From assembly GCF_053078305.1 (NCBI RefSeq), contig NZ_CP166879.1: a stretch of DNA of 64,000 nucleotides. One strand, given 5' to 3'. Within the stretch, counting starts at the first letter, position 1. The number at the start of each line of letters is the position of its first letter. A program made the translations under genes and the position numbers. Of this stretch, positions 1 through 29,502 are shown piece by piece. Below the pieces are notes generated by a model that saw only the letters and a list, made by a program, of their open reading frames with translations, had not been told where the DNA came from and did not search any database.

Positions 1-590
1 ATCACAGATCTAACCCGACAGGCATCGTGAATTAACAGACTGGAATACTCCGGTTTTACTTGGAAGTAAGGTGCCCGTTCAAAATGCGCCGGACGAACAA
101 CAGGCTCACGTACCAACAGGGCTCTTCGTGATTTCCTACCGGAGCGCTCAAATGCCTTTTCAGTATAGAGATCTGTAAGTAAAACCGCCCGAACCCGCAC
201 AGCACTATAAGGTAATATTTGAGCCAGTACTTCTCCCCACAAAGCCTCATATATTGCATGAACAGCGCCGAGTGCACCATTAGAATGACGTTCGTCAGTA
301 CCTTCGCCAACCAACGGATTACTTCCTATTCCTTTAACCTGGTAGTTACCATCAAACCCACAACGTGCACCACCTCCATTACGCTGAATACCACTGCCAC
401 CATAGCGCTCTGCATGGAACACTTTGGCAGAAGCTGTACTGCCAGGATCGATAATATAACTGCAGGCATTTTGCAGCTCGTCTGGATTTCTGACATCCTC
501 TGCACACCAGATTAATGAGGCCTTGATCTGCCTGGCAGTGAAAGGCACCAGGTTTTCATTCAGTTCAGAAAGTGAACACTGATGACTCAT
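1..590 (-). CDS. mchC: Microcin H47 maturation protein MchC-like, N-terminal part (gene continues past window start)
   Basis: Open frame on minus strand from ATG at 590-588 (MSHQCSLSELNENLVPF...) with no stop to window edge; GGAG Shine-Dalgarno upstream; lies immediately downstream of mchI-mchB as in the H47 cluster. Absent from the ORF track because it is edge-truncated. Identity is by position only. Confidence 0.5.
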   Translation of the reverse strand, partial: MSHQCSLSELNENLVPFTARQIKASLIWCAEDVRNPDELQNACSYIIDPGSTASAKVFHAERYGGSGIQRNGGGARCGFDGNYQVKGIGSNPLVGEGTDERHSNGALGAVHAIYEALWGEVLAQILPYSAVRVRAVLLTDLYTEKAFERSGRKSRRALLVREPVVRPAHFERAPYFQVKPEYSSLLIHDACRVRSV

Positions 591-614
591 CTGGCAGTAT
601 TCTCCGTTTCAATT

Positions 615-640
615 TTCATAAAAGAGTGTTCATAAAAGAG
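615..640. repeat. Tandem direct repeat ttcataaaagag x2 (2-bp spacer) between mchB and mchC
   Basis: Read directly: ttcataaaagag tg ttcataaaagag. Confidence 0.7.
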
Positions 641-861
641 CAAGTAAGTGTCCTGACAGCTTCTTCCTTATTACAGTAAAACTCTATTAATTACACATAA
701 ATTAAAAAATTATTTATCAACGACTGTAAATCATATCTTCATCAGTAAAGTGTTGAACATAAAAACACACTTATAAATGGATCTTCTATCTGTTTTAAAC
801 AAAAAGGATATATTTTACAGGTACTACCGAAAAAGTGCCTGTAAAATAAATAAAAATATAA

Positions 862-1089
862 TTAGCTACCGCCACCAGCAGAAGAACTGGCACTACCACT
901 TCCCACGGTCGAGCCAATTGCTGTTGTCAAACCGGCAGATACGGCTCCAACTACAACCCCAAGTGGACCACCAGGTATTCCGGCGAGAGCTCCAACAATA
1001 GCTGCAGCACCTGCAGCATTAGCTGAAGTAGCTGGCGCACCTCCCGCCCCGGAAATATATCTTAACTGTGATTCTGTTATTTCTCGCAT
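862..1089 (-). CDS. mchB: Microcin H47 precursor (class IIb siderophore-microcin)
   Basis: 75 aa, MREITESQLRYISGAGGA double-glycine-type leader followed by Gly/Ala-rich core and Ser-rich C-terminus; matches my recollection of MchB. Confidence 0.9.
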   Translation of the reverse strand: MREITESQLRYISGAGGAPATSANAAGAAAIVGALAGIPGGPLGVVVGAVSAGLTTAIGSTVGSGSASSSAGGGS

Positions 1090-1116
1090 ATAAACTGCAT
1101 ATAAACTCCATCATAT

Positions 1117-1326
1117 TTAACTTCCGTTTTTCCAGCCTGACCAGACCAGAATCCTTCGAATCCCATGAATCAGCTCAATAAAACCAAGAAATATTATAAA
1201 GCTTAGAAAAACGTCAACATAAGAATTCCCTTCGCCAACAATCCGAAGGGATGAAAGTGAAACCAATAAGATAGTAATAGGTAAACTGAATATAGCCGTC
1301 AATTGGGACAGTTTTTTATAACTCAT
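1117..1326 (-). CDS. mchI: Microcin H47 immunity protein
   Basis: 69-aa hydrophobic membrane peptide immediately upstream of mchB on the same strand. Confidence 0.85.
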   Translation of the reverse strand: MSYKKLSQLTAIFSLPITILLVSLSSLRIVGEGNSYVDVFLSFIIFLGFIELIHGIRRILVWSGWKNGS

Positions 1327-1738
1327 TAATCCCTACCTGTTGCTTTATTTTCATTATGAAAAGTTACCAAATCTTAGCACCTCAGTCAGGAGAGTCAGGT
1401 CATCGATAAAGAATATTCCAGTAGAGTGGCGCTCATGATCAAAGATAACAGCAAAGTTGATGACAGCGCTGACCGACTGTCATTTACAGAAACCCTGTTT
1501 GTAGCACATTCCATCTTACCTGACCTCACCCAGACAAAGACAAAAGAGAATGATTGTTATTTACTTTTCAAAAAAAAGTGTCATATTGTCCATATAAAGT
1601 CAAGAGGTATTTTACGTTATGTCACTGATGCAATTGTTAGTCAGGATCTCATGGTTGTCGCTCATGTATAACCTGAGACTTGAACGCACACTAATAGCAC
1701 TGACGGTCATACATCGGGAAATGTGAGGAGGCATAAGA

Positions 1739-1984
1739 ATGAATTGTGATAATAATCACAGAAATGAAGAATTCATTGTTACCTTTGATAAAGGCAACAA
1801 GCAAGACAATTCAAGACGAAAACACGATAATTTTCCTATAGAGGTAGAATCCTCCGTAGAGCAGGAGACACACTGTATCACAAATAATAAGTCGGCTTCC
1901 GGTATAGTAACACATGACTATGATGCCGATTATATTTGTGGTTGTGGTGAAATTATGTGTCCTGGTTGCGGTCATGACCTATAA
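1739..1984 (+). CDS. Hypothetical small protein with C-terminal Cys cluster (CGCGEIMCPGCGH)
   Basis: 81-aa ORF preceded by AGGAGG Shine-Dalgarno; AT-rich like the neighbouring microcin genes; no double-glycine leader. Confidence 0.4.
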   Translation: MNCDNNHRNEEFIVTFDKGNKQDNSRRKHDNFPIEVESSVEQETHCITNNKSASGIVTHDYDADYICGCGEIMCPGCGHDL

Positions 1985-2139
1985 CAAACATTTTTGCAAA
2001 CTGATACCTGATCAGGTACAAGCCTGTTGATTATTATGCTGAATATTTCATGTTATAAAACCATCGATATAAACATTAACAAGAAAAAACATATATTGTT
2101 TATCTGAACATTTATCGATGGAAAACCAAAGGGGAAAGT

Positions 2140-27627: not shown

Positions 27628-27655
27628 ATATCACTCACCAGACTTCATTCCACTG

Positions 27656-27688
27656 ACGCCAGCCTGAACAGGGCTGGCGTTTTCATTT
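27656..27688 (+). terminator. Rho-independent terminator ending the yeeT-cbeA-cbtA-yeeW operon
   Basis: acgccagcc tgaacag ggctggcgt followed by TTTCATTT. Confidence 0.55.
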
Positions 27689-27711
27689 ATCTGCAAAAAG
27701 GAATATCGATT

Positions 27712-28578
27712 ATGTCAGGTATCACAATCTCCCGTCCTGAAGTGGTCAACGGGCATACGGACGTTATCTGTTCCACCTCAATCGGACACATTCTGGCTGT
27801 ACGAAAGACCACACTGATGCAAATCGACACACTTATCCGGCAACTGACAGAAATCTCAGCAATGACAGAAAGTATTGGAGGTAAAACCGCCCCGGACTGG
27901 GCCATAAAACAGAATTTTCGCTGCGGTTGCTGGCTGATGGAGAAACCCGAAACAGCAATGAAAGCCATTACCCGGAATCTTGACCGCGAAATCTGGCGTG
28001 ACCTGATGCAACGTTCCGGGATGCTGTCATTAATGGATGCACAGGCACGTGATACATGGTACCGGTCACTGGAATACGATAATTTTCCGGAAATCAGTGA
28101 AGAGAATATACTGAGTACGTTTGAGCAGCTACACCAGAATAAGGATGAAGTGTTTGAGCGTGGGGTCATCAACGTCTTCAGGGGACTGAGCTGGAATTAC
28201 AAAACCAACTCACCCTGTAAATTTGGCAGTAAAATTATCGTCAACAACCTGGTGAGGTGGGACCGGTGGGGGTTTCATTTTATCACCGGGCAACAGGCAG
28301 ATCGACTTGCCGATCTGGAAAGAATGCTACACCTGTTCAGCGGCAAACCGATCCCCGACAACCGGGAAAACATCACCCTTCGTCTGGATGATCATATCCA
28401 GTCTGTTCAGGGTAAAGAGAACTATGAAGACGAGATGTTCAGTATTAAATACTTTAAGAAAGGCTCAGTACACATCACGTTCAGGAAACCAGAACTGGTT
28501 GACAGGCTTAATGATATTATTGCCAGACACTACCCGGAAGCCCTGGCAAGCACAGTGAACAAAAGCCGCAAGGCATAA
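27712..28578 (+). CDS. Hypothetical 288-aa protein at island terminus
   Basis: AAGGA Shine-Dalgarno; own terminator upstream; no family assignable from sequence alone. Confidence 0.6.
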   Translation: MSGITISRPEVVNGHTDVICSTSIGHILAVRKTTLMQIDTLIRQLTEISAMTESIGGKTAPDWAIKQNFRCGCWLMEKPETAMKAITRNLDREIWRDLMQRSGMLSLMDAQARDTWYRSLEYDNFPEISEENILSTFEQLHQNKDEVFERGVINVFRGLSWNYKTNSPCKFGSKIIVNNLVRWDRWGFHFITGQQADRLADLERMLHLFSGKPIPDNRENITLRLDDHIQSVQGKENYEDEMFSIKYFKKGSVHITFRKPELVDRLNDIIARHYPEALASTVNKSRKA

Positions 28579-28649
28579 AAGAGGTATTTTACAATTCGCG
28601 AATATTAACTATTATTAATTGATAGCAATCAATCGGCGAGAAAATCACC

Positions 28650-28913
28650 ATGCCTACCAGTGTATCCCTCAGTCCTTACTTTGAAACGTTTATCCGCGAA
28701 CAAATAGAAAGTGGTCGGTATAACAATACAAGTGAAGTCATTCGTGCCGGACTTCGTGCTCTGGAAGAACGGGAACAGCAGATAAAGCTTGAATCACTCC
28801 AGAGCGCCGTTACCGCAGGCATCAACAGCGGTGAAAGTAAAAGTGCTGAAGAGGTATTCGGGCGACTGACGCACAAATACAAAAAGATGGCAGAAGGTGA
28901 ACAGCCAATATGA
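28650..28913 (+). CDS. parD: ParD-family type II antitoxin
   Basis: 87 aa; MPTSVSLSPYFETFIREQIESGRYNNTSEVIRAGLRALEERE. Confidence 0.75.
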   Translation: MPTSVSLSPYFETFIREQIESGRYNNTSEVIRAGLRALEEREQQIKLESLQSAVTAGINSGESKSAEEVFGRLTHKYKKMAEGEQPI

Positions 28914-29236
28914 AACTGACTGTTTCACCATTAGCAGAACACGATCTTGAAGCTATAGGTGACTGGATCGCTCAGGATAATCCTGTCCGTGCAATCAGTT
29001 TTACCGAAGAGCTTTACCAACAATGTCTGTTGATAGCCGAATCGCCAGTACTCTACAGAGAAAGACCCGAATTAGGGGCTGGGATCAGAGGTTGTTCGTA
29101 TGGTCGTTACCTTCTGCTGTTCAGGGTACTGGATACTGAAGTTCGTATCGAACGTATCGTTCATGGTTCCCGGGATATCAACAGGGTACTTGCAGAGCCA
29201 GACGACAAACCATCAGATCATTTCTGGCAGCCATAA
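28910..29236 (+). CDS. parE: ParE/RelE-family type II toxin
   Basis: 108 aa; start overlaps parD stop by 4 nt (ATGA). Confidence 0.75.
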   Translation: MKLTVSPLAEHDLEAIGDWIAQDNPVRAISFTEELYQQCLLIAESPVLYRERPELGAGIRGCSYGRYLLLFRVLDTEVRIERIVHGSRDINRVLAEPDDKPSDHFWQP

Positions 29237-29483
29237 ACAAAATCTGTGCGTTAACGCTCCCTAACACAGGTAGCCAGGTATTTTATAAATCTCTGTATTT
29301 TGTTGTTACTTCGATTCCGCAATTCAGCATATCGAACCAGACAAAATGATTACAGCAAAGCACAAAAAAGAGGGATTATAGCGTCAAAAGAATTCGAATT
29401 GCACATGGGGGCCTCATTGGTGGCCTCGAAAACAACAAAGACAAAACAATCAATACAAAACAATTGGTTATATAACCAGTTTC

Positions 29484-29502
29484 ATTCCGAGTCCGGGCAC
29501 CA
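29484..29502 (+). repeat. tRNA-Phe 3'-end remnant (island att site / direct repeat)
   Basis: attccgagtccgggcacca equals the last 19 nt of E. coli tRNA-Phe including CCA; the upstream tRNA body is absent. Confidence 0.75.

What the first reader, a model, noticed from the sequence alone, without database searches (positions are those of the whole stretch)
1..29502. Mosaic pheU island ending at a 19-bp tRNA-Phe 3'-end repeat, with no integrase in the window
attccgagtccgggcacca (29484-29502) reproduces the 3' end of tRNA-Phe but the tRNA body is missing. It is followed by the pheU terminator and then cadC, which in K-12 lies next to intact pheU. This is the distal att junction of an island of at least 29.5 kb that combines a microcin cluster, P4/CP4-like genes and an Ag43 block. 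The intact tRNA and integrase should lie upstream of the window.
Basis: partly seen in the sequence, partly recalled or inferred. Interest (0 to 1): 0.5.

Follow-up and report, generated by a model that had tools for sequence, protein, structure and literature searches.

The report
Far end of a tRNA-Phe genomic island
This is the ordinary, well-documented far boundary of a large mobile DNA island inserted into an E. coli phenylalanine-tRNA gene; it sits against the decayed remains of an older island of the same family, and nothing about it is new in kind.

Summary
ATTCCGAGTCCGGGCACCA (29484-29502, +) is unique in the window, equals nt 58-76 of tRNA-Phe, and no tRNA gene is present. Identity to K-12 pheU-cadC starts exactly at 29484.

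The interpretation, the distal (attR-type) junction of a tRNA-Phe island, is supported. This is the published "19-bp attR" class of P4-integrase tRNA-Phe islands.

Refinements:
1. A decayed integrase lies just outside the repeat (29666-29859). It keeps the leader, a mutated start, codons 1-5 and about 359-420, and K-12 has it too. The "pheU terminator" therefore belongs to the fossil left end of an older island.
2. The sequence repeated from an island left end is about 133-152 bp at 92-95% in relatives, not only 19 bp.
3. The island is a recombinant. Positions 1-25385 are 99.2% identical to islands located at pheV. Positions 26556 onward are 99.0% identical to a pheU island right end (RM10410).
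4. Relatives place the intact tRNA-Phe and integrase 97-153 kb upstream.
5. In IBS28, the only complete genome found with the same combination, the left end is yqgA-pheV-int. A reciprocal hybrid island shows a pheV/pheU inversion spanning oriC.

Whether the source genome's left end is pheU or pheV cannot be read from the window. Known kind, low interest.

The parts
1..590 (-). mchC (microcin H47 maturation gene). Only the N-terminal 196 codons are present; the gene runs off the window start.
   Evidence: Translates without stops. It maps onto WP_033802401.1, next to mchB, in a locus that is 99.2% identical.
862..1089 (-). mchB, microcin H47 precursor
   Evidence: ORF. RefSeq annotates 'microcin H47' at the matching position of VG38-53E1. 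Weak NCBIfam E492-group microcin hit.
1117..1326 (-). mchI, microcin H47 immunity protein
   Evidence: Clean 69-aa translation. RefSeq annotation of the matching locus.
2140..2574 (+). mchS3
   Evidence: NCBIfam MchS3 family, 139 bits against a cut-off of 100.
3113..4387 (+). Enterochelin-esterase-like alpha/beta hydrolase of the microcin cluster
   Evidence: NCBIfam enterochelin esterase, E = 7.5e-57, below the curated cut-off. RefSeq annotation.
4529..5653 (-). Glycosyltransferase of the microcin cluster (mchA-like)
   Evidence: NCBIfam glycosyltransferase subfamilies, E = 1e-53. RefSeq annotation.
5983..6197 (+). Imperfect repeat at the edge of the microcin module. It is a candidate attachment repeat of the small MccH47 island; its partner lies upstream of the window in relatives.
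   Evidence: Matches of 77-84% identity to a site beyond mchF in VG38-53E1 and IBS28, about 13.4 kb away in IBS28. This fits the 144/148-bp, 76%-identical repeats described in PMC3191183. It was not compared with the published repeat sequence.
6382..6579 (-). AlpA-like HTH regulator / excisionase candidate
   Evidence: PHROG 'excisionase and transcriptional regulator', E = 2e-8.
6965..9645 (-). P4/CP4-like block: YagK/YfjJ-domain, zinc-ribbon and inovirus-Gp2-family genes
   Evidence: RefSeq annotation of the locus that is 99.2% identical. PHROG hits.
11301..11579 (+). Second AlpA-like HTH regulator / excisionase candidate
   Evidence: PHROG 'excisionase and transcriptional regulator', E = 9e-10.
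12590..14143 (-). YfjI-family gene
   Evidence: RefSeq annotation of matching loci.
15265..22839 (+). flu module: YeeP-like GTPase (15265-16176), Ag43 autotransporter (16474-19671), an 840-aa YeeR-like protein (19786-22308) and IrmA (22384-22839)
   Evidence: ORFs. RefSeq annotation. GTPase hits.
22918..25385 (+). yee module, first part: DUF905, DUF932, antirestriction, JAB/RadC-like and DUF987 genes. The 99.2% match to pheV-located islands ends at 25385.
25386..26555 (+). Recombination zone. It holds an optional 214-aa gene (25404-26048) that is absent from the five compared islands, followed by a YeeU/CbeA antitoxin.
   Evidence: None of the five loci matches across it at high identity: 25386-25935 is absent from all five and 25936-26450 is only about 88-90% identical. 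The best matches elsewhere are 97.8%, and the gene is present in 1932 genomes.
26556..29483 (+). Right-end segment, 99.0% identical to the RM10410 pheU island: CbtA toxin, DUF5983, DUF957, DUF4942 (27712-28578), ParD (28650-28913), ParE (28910-29236) and the roughly 190-bp right arm
   Evidence: ParD 96.9 bits against a cut-off of 46.2 and a RelE/ParE hit. The arm 29312-29502 is 94.2% identical in Nissle-type genomes.
29484..29502 (+). Displaced 3' end of tRNA-Phe (nt 58-76): the attR-type core of the '19-bp class'
   Evidence: The class is described in PMC11537424.
29503..29665 (+). Terminator (29512-29537) and integrase leader. This sequence is homologous to the tRNA-to-int spacer at the left ends of present-day islands.
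   Evidence: Window 29484-29616 is 95.5% identical to the RM10410 left end.
29666..29859 (+). Integrase fossil. The start codon is mutated to ATA (29666-29668) and codons 1-5 are kept. An internal deletion follows, then codons about 359-420 (29700-29856) with a frameshift and a stop, ending at TAG 29857-29859.
   Evidence: tblastn with two island integrases, E = 1e-9. Alignment. RefSeq marks the same pseudogene in K-12 DH1 and others.
30119..31657 (+). cadC, the first core gene

Best explanation
**What it is.** Position 29484-29502 is the distal (attR-type) junction of a large, modular genomic island of the P4-integrase family that targets the two identical tRNA-Phe genes, pheU and pheV.

**How the junction arose (inferred from the known mechanism of P4-type integrases).**
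1. A circular element carrying a copy of the tRNA 3' end recombined with the 3' end of the chromosomal gene.
2. The gene was rebuilt at the integrase-proximal end.
3. The original last 19 nt were pushed to the far end, where they still abut the original downstream DNA.

**What that downstream DNA is (shown).** It is the decayed left end of an older island of the same family: terminator, integrase leader and an internally deleted integrase. Almost all E. coli share it, K-12 included. The present island is therefore a second insertion at the same site.

**The island body (shown).** It is a patchwork made by homologous recombination among paralogous flu/yee modules. Its left 25.4 kb match islands located at pheV. 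Its last 3 kb match a pheU island right end carrying ParDE.

**What is inferred only from relatives.** An intact tRNA-Phe and a full integrase lie roughly 100-150 kb upstream of the window.
For: - The repeat is unique and matches the tRNA exactly, and no tRNA gene is present.
- The breakpoint against K-12 is at 29484, with collinearity to cadC.
- The junction with its island arm occurs in 159 of 5426 genomes, whereas the pheU-downstream side matches 5420.
- The right flank is core DNA.
- Relatives have a full integrase next to an intact tRNA-Phe at the other end: RM10410 at pheU, about 97.5 kb away, VG38-53E1 at pheV, about 153 kb, and IBS28.
- Left-end spacers align with the window's right flank through integrase codons 1-5, and an integrase C-terminal relic is present.
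- The mosaic breakpoints are defined.
- The 19-bp and 23-bp attR classes and the flu/yee modules are published for GI-pheV (PMC11537424) and for pheU/pheV insertions (PMC6174562).
Against: - The left end of this island is outside the window, so neither the integrase nor the intact tRNA is seen for this genome.
- No complete genome in the collection matches the whole window. The best matches are 99.2-99.3% and only piecewise.
- Mobility (excision or integration) was not and cannot be tested here.
- In 95-3322 the left part of a related island is rearranged next to tyrB, with no tRNA-Phe annotated in the stretch shown. An intact left end is therefore not guaranteed.
Confidence: 0.9

Rival explanations
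1. Hybrid island produced by an inversion. In the source genome, homologous recombination between an island at pheV and an island at pheU inverted the roughly 1.3-Mb segment that contains oriC. The two sites are inverted relative to each other and lie on opposite sides of oriC. The island ending at cadC would then begin at yqgA-pheV-int, not dicD-pheU-int.
For: - Window 1-25385 is one 99.2% block matching an island that sits at pheV in VG38-53E1. The same content is at pheV in NCCP 13963.
- From 26556 onward the window switches to 99.0% identity with a pheU right end. A crossover in the yee module would leave this pattern.
- Among the listed top hits, only IBS28 joins the microcin module to the cadC junction.
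- IBS28 has yqgA-pheV-int on the left. It also has the reciprocal island dicD-pheU-int ... pheV'-yghD.
- Genomes such as STEC1590 carry related modules at both sites, which provides the substrate for such recombination.
Against: - RM10410 shows that a normal pheU island with this exact right end exists.
- The same integrase protein (WP_001218780.1) occurs at both pheU and pheV, so direct integration at pheU is possible.
- Double crossover or gene conversion would give the same mosaic without an inversion.
- The IBS28 arrangement could be a misassembly across repeats of about 20 kb.
- The window's right end (19-bp class, with ParDE) differs from that of IBS28 (22-nt class), so the two are not the same event.
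Confidence: 0.35
2. Canonical pheU island. The element, or its ancestor, integrated at pheU by its own integrase. The left end is dicD-pheU-int as in RM10410. The resemblance to pheV islands comes from later patch-wise homologous exchange with imported or paralogous DNA.
For: - RM10410 has this architecture with the same right end.
- The same islands (LEE, OI-122) are reported at either pheU or pheV in different lineages (PMC3893438).
- A three-way mosaic with a separate middle segment indicates repeated local exchange.
Against: Apart from IBS28, which is the inverted hybrid, none of the listed top hits carries the microcin-bearing body next to the cadC junction.
Confidence: 0.55
3. Not an attachment junction. 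The 19 nt would be what remains of pheU after a deletion or an IS-mediated rearrangement removed the 5' part of the gene, so the adjacent accessory DNA arrived by some other route.
For: Related islands do undergo IS-linked rearrangements (95-3322), and many IS fragments lie in relatives.
Against: - The same 19-nt end with the same left arm recurs in RM10410 at 99% identity.
- The ParDE segment plus arm occurs in 471 genomes, and the arm alone occurs in hundreds more, Nissle-type genomes included.
- The published 19-bp attR class has the same TTTC prefix.
- No IS lies at the junction.
Confidence: 0.03

Closest known systems
GI-pheV / GI-pheU: P4-integrase genomic islands at the tRNA-Phe genes of E. 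coli (PMC11537424; PMC6174562)
   Same: - Insertion is at the 3' end of tRNA-Phe.
- The distal imperfect repeat comes in two classes, 19 bp (TTTC-ATTCCGA.TCCGGGCACCA) and 22/23 bp with a 1-nt deletion. The window has the 19-bp class.
- The body is modular, with flu and yee modules.
- Sizes in relatives are 97-153 kb.
   Different: - Here the 19 nt are a perfect copy. The UPEC pheV islands carry a G-to-T substitution.
- A right end of the 19-bp class is joined to a body whose nearest relatives end in the 22-nt class.
- The site is pheU.
Microcin H47 small genomic island (Azpiroz et al. 2011, PMC3191183)
   Same: - The genes are mchC, mchB, mchI, mchS3, an esterase and a glycosyltransferase.
- GC content is low (33-43%).
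- An imperfect repeat sits at the module edge, with a partner about 13 kb away in relatives.
- The module is nested inside a larger island.
   Different: Only about half of the module is in the window. The repeat was not compared with the published att sequence.
CP4-44-type flu/yee module of K-12 (YeeP, Ag43, YeeR, YeeS, YeeT, CbeA/CbtA, YeeW)
   Same: The gene order and families match, and there are several paralogous copies per genome (median 3-5 places).
   Different: This copy has an extra 214-aa gene before the antitoxin and a ParDE pair at the end.
Integrase pseudogene between pheU and cadC in K-12. RefSeq annotates it as 'tyrosine-type recombinase/integrase, frameshifted, incomplete'. 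From memory, and not checked here, it is listed as yjdQ.
   Same: It is the same sequence at about 99% identity in the window.
   Different: Nothing of substance differs. Here it lies to the right of a new island instead of directly after an intact pheU.
Large pheU/pheV islands of EAEC 042 and O104:H4 (PMC2808357; PMC3551546)
   Same: The upstream parts of the closest relatives carry T6SS, Tle1/Tli1-EAEC and Ag43, as those islands do.
   Different: In O104:H4 the microcin locus is reported in the serX island, not a tRNA-Phe island. The upstream content of the source genome is unknown.

Membership tests
tRNA-Phe P4-integrase genomic island (GI-pheU/GI-pheV) | A partial copy of the tRNA-Phe 3' end lies at the integrase-distal border, abutting the native downstream flank | tested here: met
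   The match is 19/19 nt, unique, and the breakpoint against K-12 falls exactly at 29484.
tRNA-Phe P4-integrase genomic island (GI-pheU/GI-pheV) | An intact tRNA-Phe is immediately followed by a P4-type tyrosine integrase at the proximal border | not testable with these tools
   The proximal border lies outside the window. It is present in relatives RM10410, VG38-53E1 and IBS28. The window holds only a relic, at 29666-29859.
tRNA-Phe P4-integrase genomic island (GI-pheU/GI-pheV) | Presence varies among strains while the flank is conserved | tested here: met
   The island-side junction occurs in 159 of 5426 genomes and the pheU-downstream side matches 5420. Window 49-64 kb is present in 5399 genomes.
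tRNA-Phe P4-integrase genomic island (GI-pheU/GI-pheV) | Modular accessory content (flu/yee modules, TA systems, virulence or competition genes) | tested here: met
tRNA-Phe P4-integrase genomic island (GI-pheU/GI-pheV) | Base composition differs from the core genome | tested here: inconclusive
   The microcin part is 33-43% GC and the rest of the island 45-58%, but the core beyond 29.5 kb ranges from 38% to 56%.
tRNA-Phe P4-integrase genomic island (GI-pheU/GI-pheV) | Integrase-dependent excision and integration | not testable with these tools
   This needs PCR for the attP circle and the empty attB, or read-level evidence.
19-bp attR class of tRNA-Phe islands | The repeat ATTCCGA(G/T)TCCGGGCACCA is preceded by TTTC and by a conserved right arm | tested here: met
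   The window reads gTTTC-ATTCCGAGTCCGGGCACCA. The arm 29312-29502 is 94.2% identical in Nissle-type genomes. The class is listed in PMC11537424.
Microcin H47 small genomic island | The mch gene set is flanked by imperfect direct repeats of about 145 bp | tested here: inconclusive
   The genes are present but cut by the window start. One repeat copy is at 5983-6197, and its partner is seen only in relatives.

The most novel reading that the evidence does not exclude
The source genome carries an inversion of about 1.3 Mb spanning oriC, created by homologous recombination between paralogous flu/yee modules of islands at pheV and pheU. The island that ends at cadC would then start at yqgA-pheV-int, as in strain IBS28. 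Exchange between tRNA-Phe islands would then be a recurrent route to replichore-symmetric inversions and to moving island cargo between the two sites.
Probability: 0.35. Interest if true: 0.3.

Novelty: already known. Interest (0 to 1): 0.13.

Why it matters
It matters little beyond correct annotation.

- It marks the exact island/core boundary at pheU.
- It shows that the "native" pheU downstream region of E. coli, K-12 included, is itself a fossil island left end. The site has therefore been used at least twice.
- It shows that the repeats bracketing such islands can be over 130 bp, long enough for RecA-dependent loss without an integrase.
- The pheV/pheU hybrid seen in IBS28 is a caution for island typing: the tRNA at one end does not tell which flank lies at the other end.

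Tried and rejected
- **GC skew and composition**. Skew is negative across both island and core. By reasoning, it would be the same for a normal pheU island, a normal pheV island or a symmetric inversion, so it cannot discriminate between them.
- **Internal tRNA-Phe-like repeats** that would mark tandem islands, searched with up to 3 mismatches. None was found.
- **A whole-window match among 5426 complete E. coli genomes**. None was found, so the source genome is not in that collection and its upstream sequence could not be read.
- **Scans of genome contigs and metagenome contigs.** Not used. Flanks of at most 10 kb could not reach a left end about 100 kb away, and I expected the E. coli species representative to be in the RefSeq set already.
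- **Literature on a pheU-pheV inversion.** Eighteen papers hold all three terms. The four I opened describe other inversions: prophage-mediated, IS-mediated, or involving SHI-2. None describes this one.
- **Two mapped coordinates for a small HTH gene** failed to translate and were corrected from the ORF list.
- **The idea that the 19 nt are a deletion scar** rather than an attachment junction. Rejected because the same end recurs widely.

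
Full report
**1. The observation**

The sequence ATTCCGAGTCCGGGCACCA occupies 29484-29502 on the + strand. It is the only match in the 64-kb window even when 2 mismatches are allowed, and 100 dinucleotide-preserving shuffles gave none. It equals nt 58-76 of the 76-nt tRNA-Phe gene as found in K-12 and other genomes. Extending the pattern leftward to 25 nt costs 3 mismatches, so identity ends at 19 nt. ARAGORN finds no tRNA gene anywhere in the window. An 11-pair hairpin followed by a T-run comes next (29512-29537), and then cadC (30119-31657).

**2. The junction**

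I aligned window 29380-30130 with the dicD-pheU-cadC region of a K-12 derivative (annotation). The two are nearly identical from 29484 to the cadC start and unrelated to the left of 29484. A search with the junction region (28900-30200) found the pheU-downstream side in 5420 of 5426 complete E. coli genomes. Only 159 of them also have the island-side arm. In the others the match starts at about 29481 and overlaps an annotated tRNA-Phe.

To the right, the window stays collinear with RM10410 core genes (cadCBA, dtpC, lysS, dcuSR, fumB, melAB) up to 50.2 kb at 99.0% identity. Positions 49-64 kb are present in 5399 of 5426 genomes. So 29484 is a true island/core boundary, and no accessory genes follow it, with the exception described next.

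**3. An integrase relic just outside the repeat**

I ran tblastn with the full integrases that sit next to tRNA-Phe in IBS28 and VG38-53E1. The only significant hit in the window is at 29700-29856 (+). It covers residues 359-420 at 58-67% identity and has a frameshift and a stop. RefSeq annotates the same pseudogene between tRNA-Phe and cadC in K-12 DH1, RM10410, IBS28 and 95-3322.

Next I aligned the window's right flank with three island left ends, covering tRNA-Phe through the integrase start (two at pheV, one at pheU). The terminator and the following roughly 180 bp are homologous to the tRNA-to-int spacer. The similarity runs through integrase codons 1-5. The start codon reads ATA in the window and in K-12 (29666-29668), and an internal deletion then joins to about codon 359.

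At pheV-located islands this "pheU-type" terminator follows the intact tRNA at the left end. A different terminator, followed by the yghD flank, sits at the right end. It is presumably the native pheV terminator displaced there. The K-12-type pheU downstream region is therefore the decayed left end of an older island of the same family, and the present island is a later insertion at the same site.

As a consequence, the sequence repeated from a left end is much longer than 19 bp. Window 29484-29616 is 95.5% identical to the RM10410 left end. Within RM10410 the two ends share 152 bp at 92.1%.

**4. What the island is**

Window 1-25385 is one uninterrupted 99.2% match to an island of strain VG38-53E1. 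The RefSeq annotation of that locus, together with my family scans, gives the following content:

- **Microcin module.** mchC (cut by the window start), mchB, mchI, mchS3, an enterochelin-esterase-like hydrolase and a glycosyltransferase.
- **P4/CP4-like regulators.** Two AlpA-like excisionase/regulator candidates, plus YagK/YfjJ, zinc-ribbon, Gp2-family, Hha and YfjI genes.
- **flu/yee module.** A YeeP-like GTPase, Ag43, a YeeR-like protein, IrmA, DUF905, DUF932, an antirestriction gene, a JAB/RadC-like gene and DUF987.

Positions 25386-25935 carry an optional 214-aa gene that is absent from the five compared islands but common elsewhere (1932 genomes, best identity 97.8%). From 26556 onward the window is 99.0% identical in one piece to the right end of the RM10410 pheU island. 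That stretch holds CbtA, DUF5983, DUF957, DUF4942, ParD and ParE. The island part of the window is therefore a three-piece recombinant.

**5. Where the other end lies in relatives**

| Strain | Left end | Right end | Approx. size |
|---|---|---|---|
| RM10410 | dicD - tRNA-Phe - integrase WP_001218780.1 | ParDE - 19-nt repeat - cadC | 97.5 kb |
| VG38-53E1 | yqgA - tRNA-Phe - integrase (pheV) | runs into the kps region | 153 kb |
| NCCP 13963 | not examined | yghD, the pheV downstream flank | not measured |
| IBS28, island A | yqgA - tRNA-Phe - integrase (pheV) | pheU remnant - cadC | 140 kb |
| IBS28, island B | dicD - tRNA-Phe - integrase (pheU) | pheV remnant - yghD | 88 kb |

- VG38-53E1 is the closest relative for the body. 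Its island carries microcin, T6SS, a cdiBA system and many IS remnants.
- IBS28 was the only genome among the listed top hits in which one place spans from the microcin module to the cadC junction. Its integrase has the same protein accession as the one at pheU in RM10410.
- The two IBS28 islands are reciprocal hybrids. As assembled, IBS28 carries an inversion between the pheV and pheU islands that spans oriC. I could not check the assembly against reads.

**6. Two classes of right end**

- The window and RM10410 end in gtttc-ATTCCGAGTCCGGGCACCA, a perfect 19-nt copy.
- IBS28 (both islands), 95-3322 and NCCP 13963 end in TTCGATTCCGAGTCCGG-CACCA, 22 nt with a 1-nt deletion and a different left arm.

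Both classes are published. For GI-pheV, 16 strains had the 23-bp class and 10 had the 19-bp class, which there carries a T substitution (PMC11537424). A 22-bp repeat with a "frame shift" is reported at both pheU and pheV (PMC6174562).

The window's right arm (29312-29502) is 94.2% identical in Nissle-type genomes. The ParDE segment plus arm occurs in 471 genomes. The window thus joins a right end of the 19-bp class to a body whose nearest relatives end in the 22-nt class.

**7. Mechanism**

Shown here:
- the exact breakpoint inside pheU;
- the displaced 19 nt followed by the original flank;
- the fossil integrase;
- the mosaic breakpoints;
- intact tRNA-Phe plus integrase at the far end in relatives.

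Inferred from what is established for P4-type tyrosine integrases:
- integration by site-specific recombination between an element-borne copy of the tRNA 3' end and the chromosomal gene;
- possible excision with the help of an AlpA-like factor;
- later reshaping by homologous recombination among paralogous modules.

Not decidable from the window is whether the left end in the source genome is pheU (canonical; my estimate is about 0.55) or pheV (an inversion hybrid as in IBS28; about 0.35).

**8. Novelty**

Islands at tRNA-Phe, both attR classes, the flu/yee modules, the nested microcin H47 island (PMC3191183) and the use of either pheU or pheV by the same islands (PMC3893438) are all documented. 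The component sequences exist at 99% identity in public complete genomes.

The reading of the pheU downstream region as a fossil attL with a deleted integrase, and the pheV/pheU hybrid in IBS28, are small refinements. I did not find either spelled out in the papers I searched. Neither is surprising. Verdict: a real feature, correctly interpreted, of an already known kind, and of low interest.

Noticed in passing
Locus L012 24219-25757 with L009 39105 onward, and L015 26271-27809 with L014 20683-20964 (IBS28, NZ_CP049979.1): Strain IBS28 has reciprocal hybrid islands: yqgA-pheV-int ... pheU'-cadC and dicD-pheU-int ... pheV'-yghD. This implies an inversion between the two tRNA-Phe islands that spans oriC. 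Both islands carry an ISSfl8 copy that interrupts the DUF4942 gene in the same way in the annotation, which suggests homogenisation of the shared module.
   Followed up: partly
window 5983-6197: An imperfect repeat (77-84% identity) lies at the edge of the microcin module. Its partner sits beyond mchF in relatives, about 13.4 kb away in IBS28. This fits the long attachment repeats of the small MccH47 island, which is reported to move without its own recombinase.
   Followed up: partly
window 25404-26048: An optional 214-aa gene lies between the DUF987 gene and the YeeU/CbeA antitoxin. It is absent from the five closest islands but present in 1932 complete genomes, where it is annotated variously as hypothetical, 'antitoxin of toxin-antitoxin stability system' or DUF8835. 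NCBIfam gave no hit.
   Followed up: partly
Locus L004 (95-3322, NZ_CP027461.1) 15142-23433: In strain 95-3322 the related pheU island is truncated on its left by IS elements. It abuts tyrB and a 2-oxoglutarate dehydrogenase pair, and no tRNA-Phe is annotated in the stretch shown. This looks like an IS-mediated inversion of about 95 kb.
   Followed up: no
Loci L008 29852-29927 and L012 24219-24294, compared with L005 30663-31006 and L014 20683-20964: At islands located at pheV, the intact tRNA is followed by the pheU-type terminator (one SNP). A different terminator, adjacent to the yghD flank and presumably native to pheV, sits at the right end. The terminator therefore travels with the island's attachment region.
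   Followed up: yes
Loci L003 23122-24456 and L006 5543-6721: RefSeq flags cadB as a pseudogene (internal stop) in RM10410 and in the K-12 derivative DH1Ec169. The window's cadB (32023-33357) is a full 444-codon ORF.
   Followed up: no
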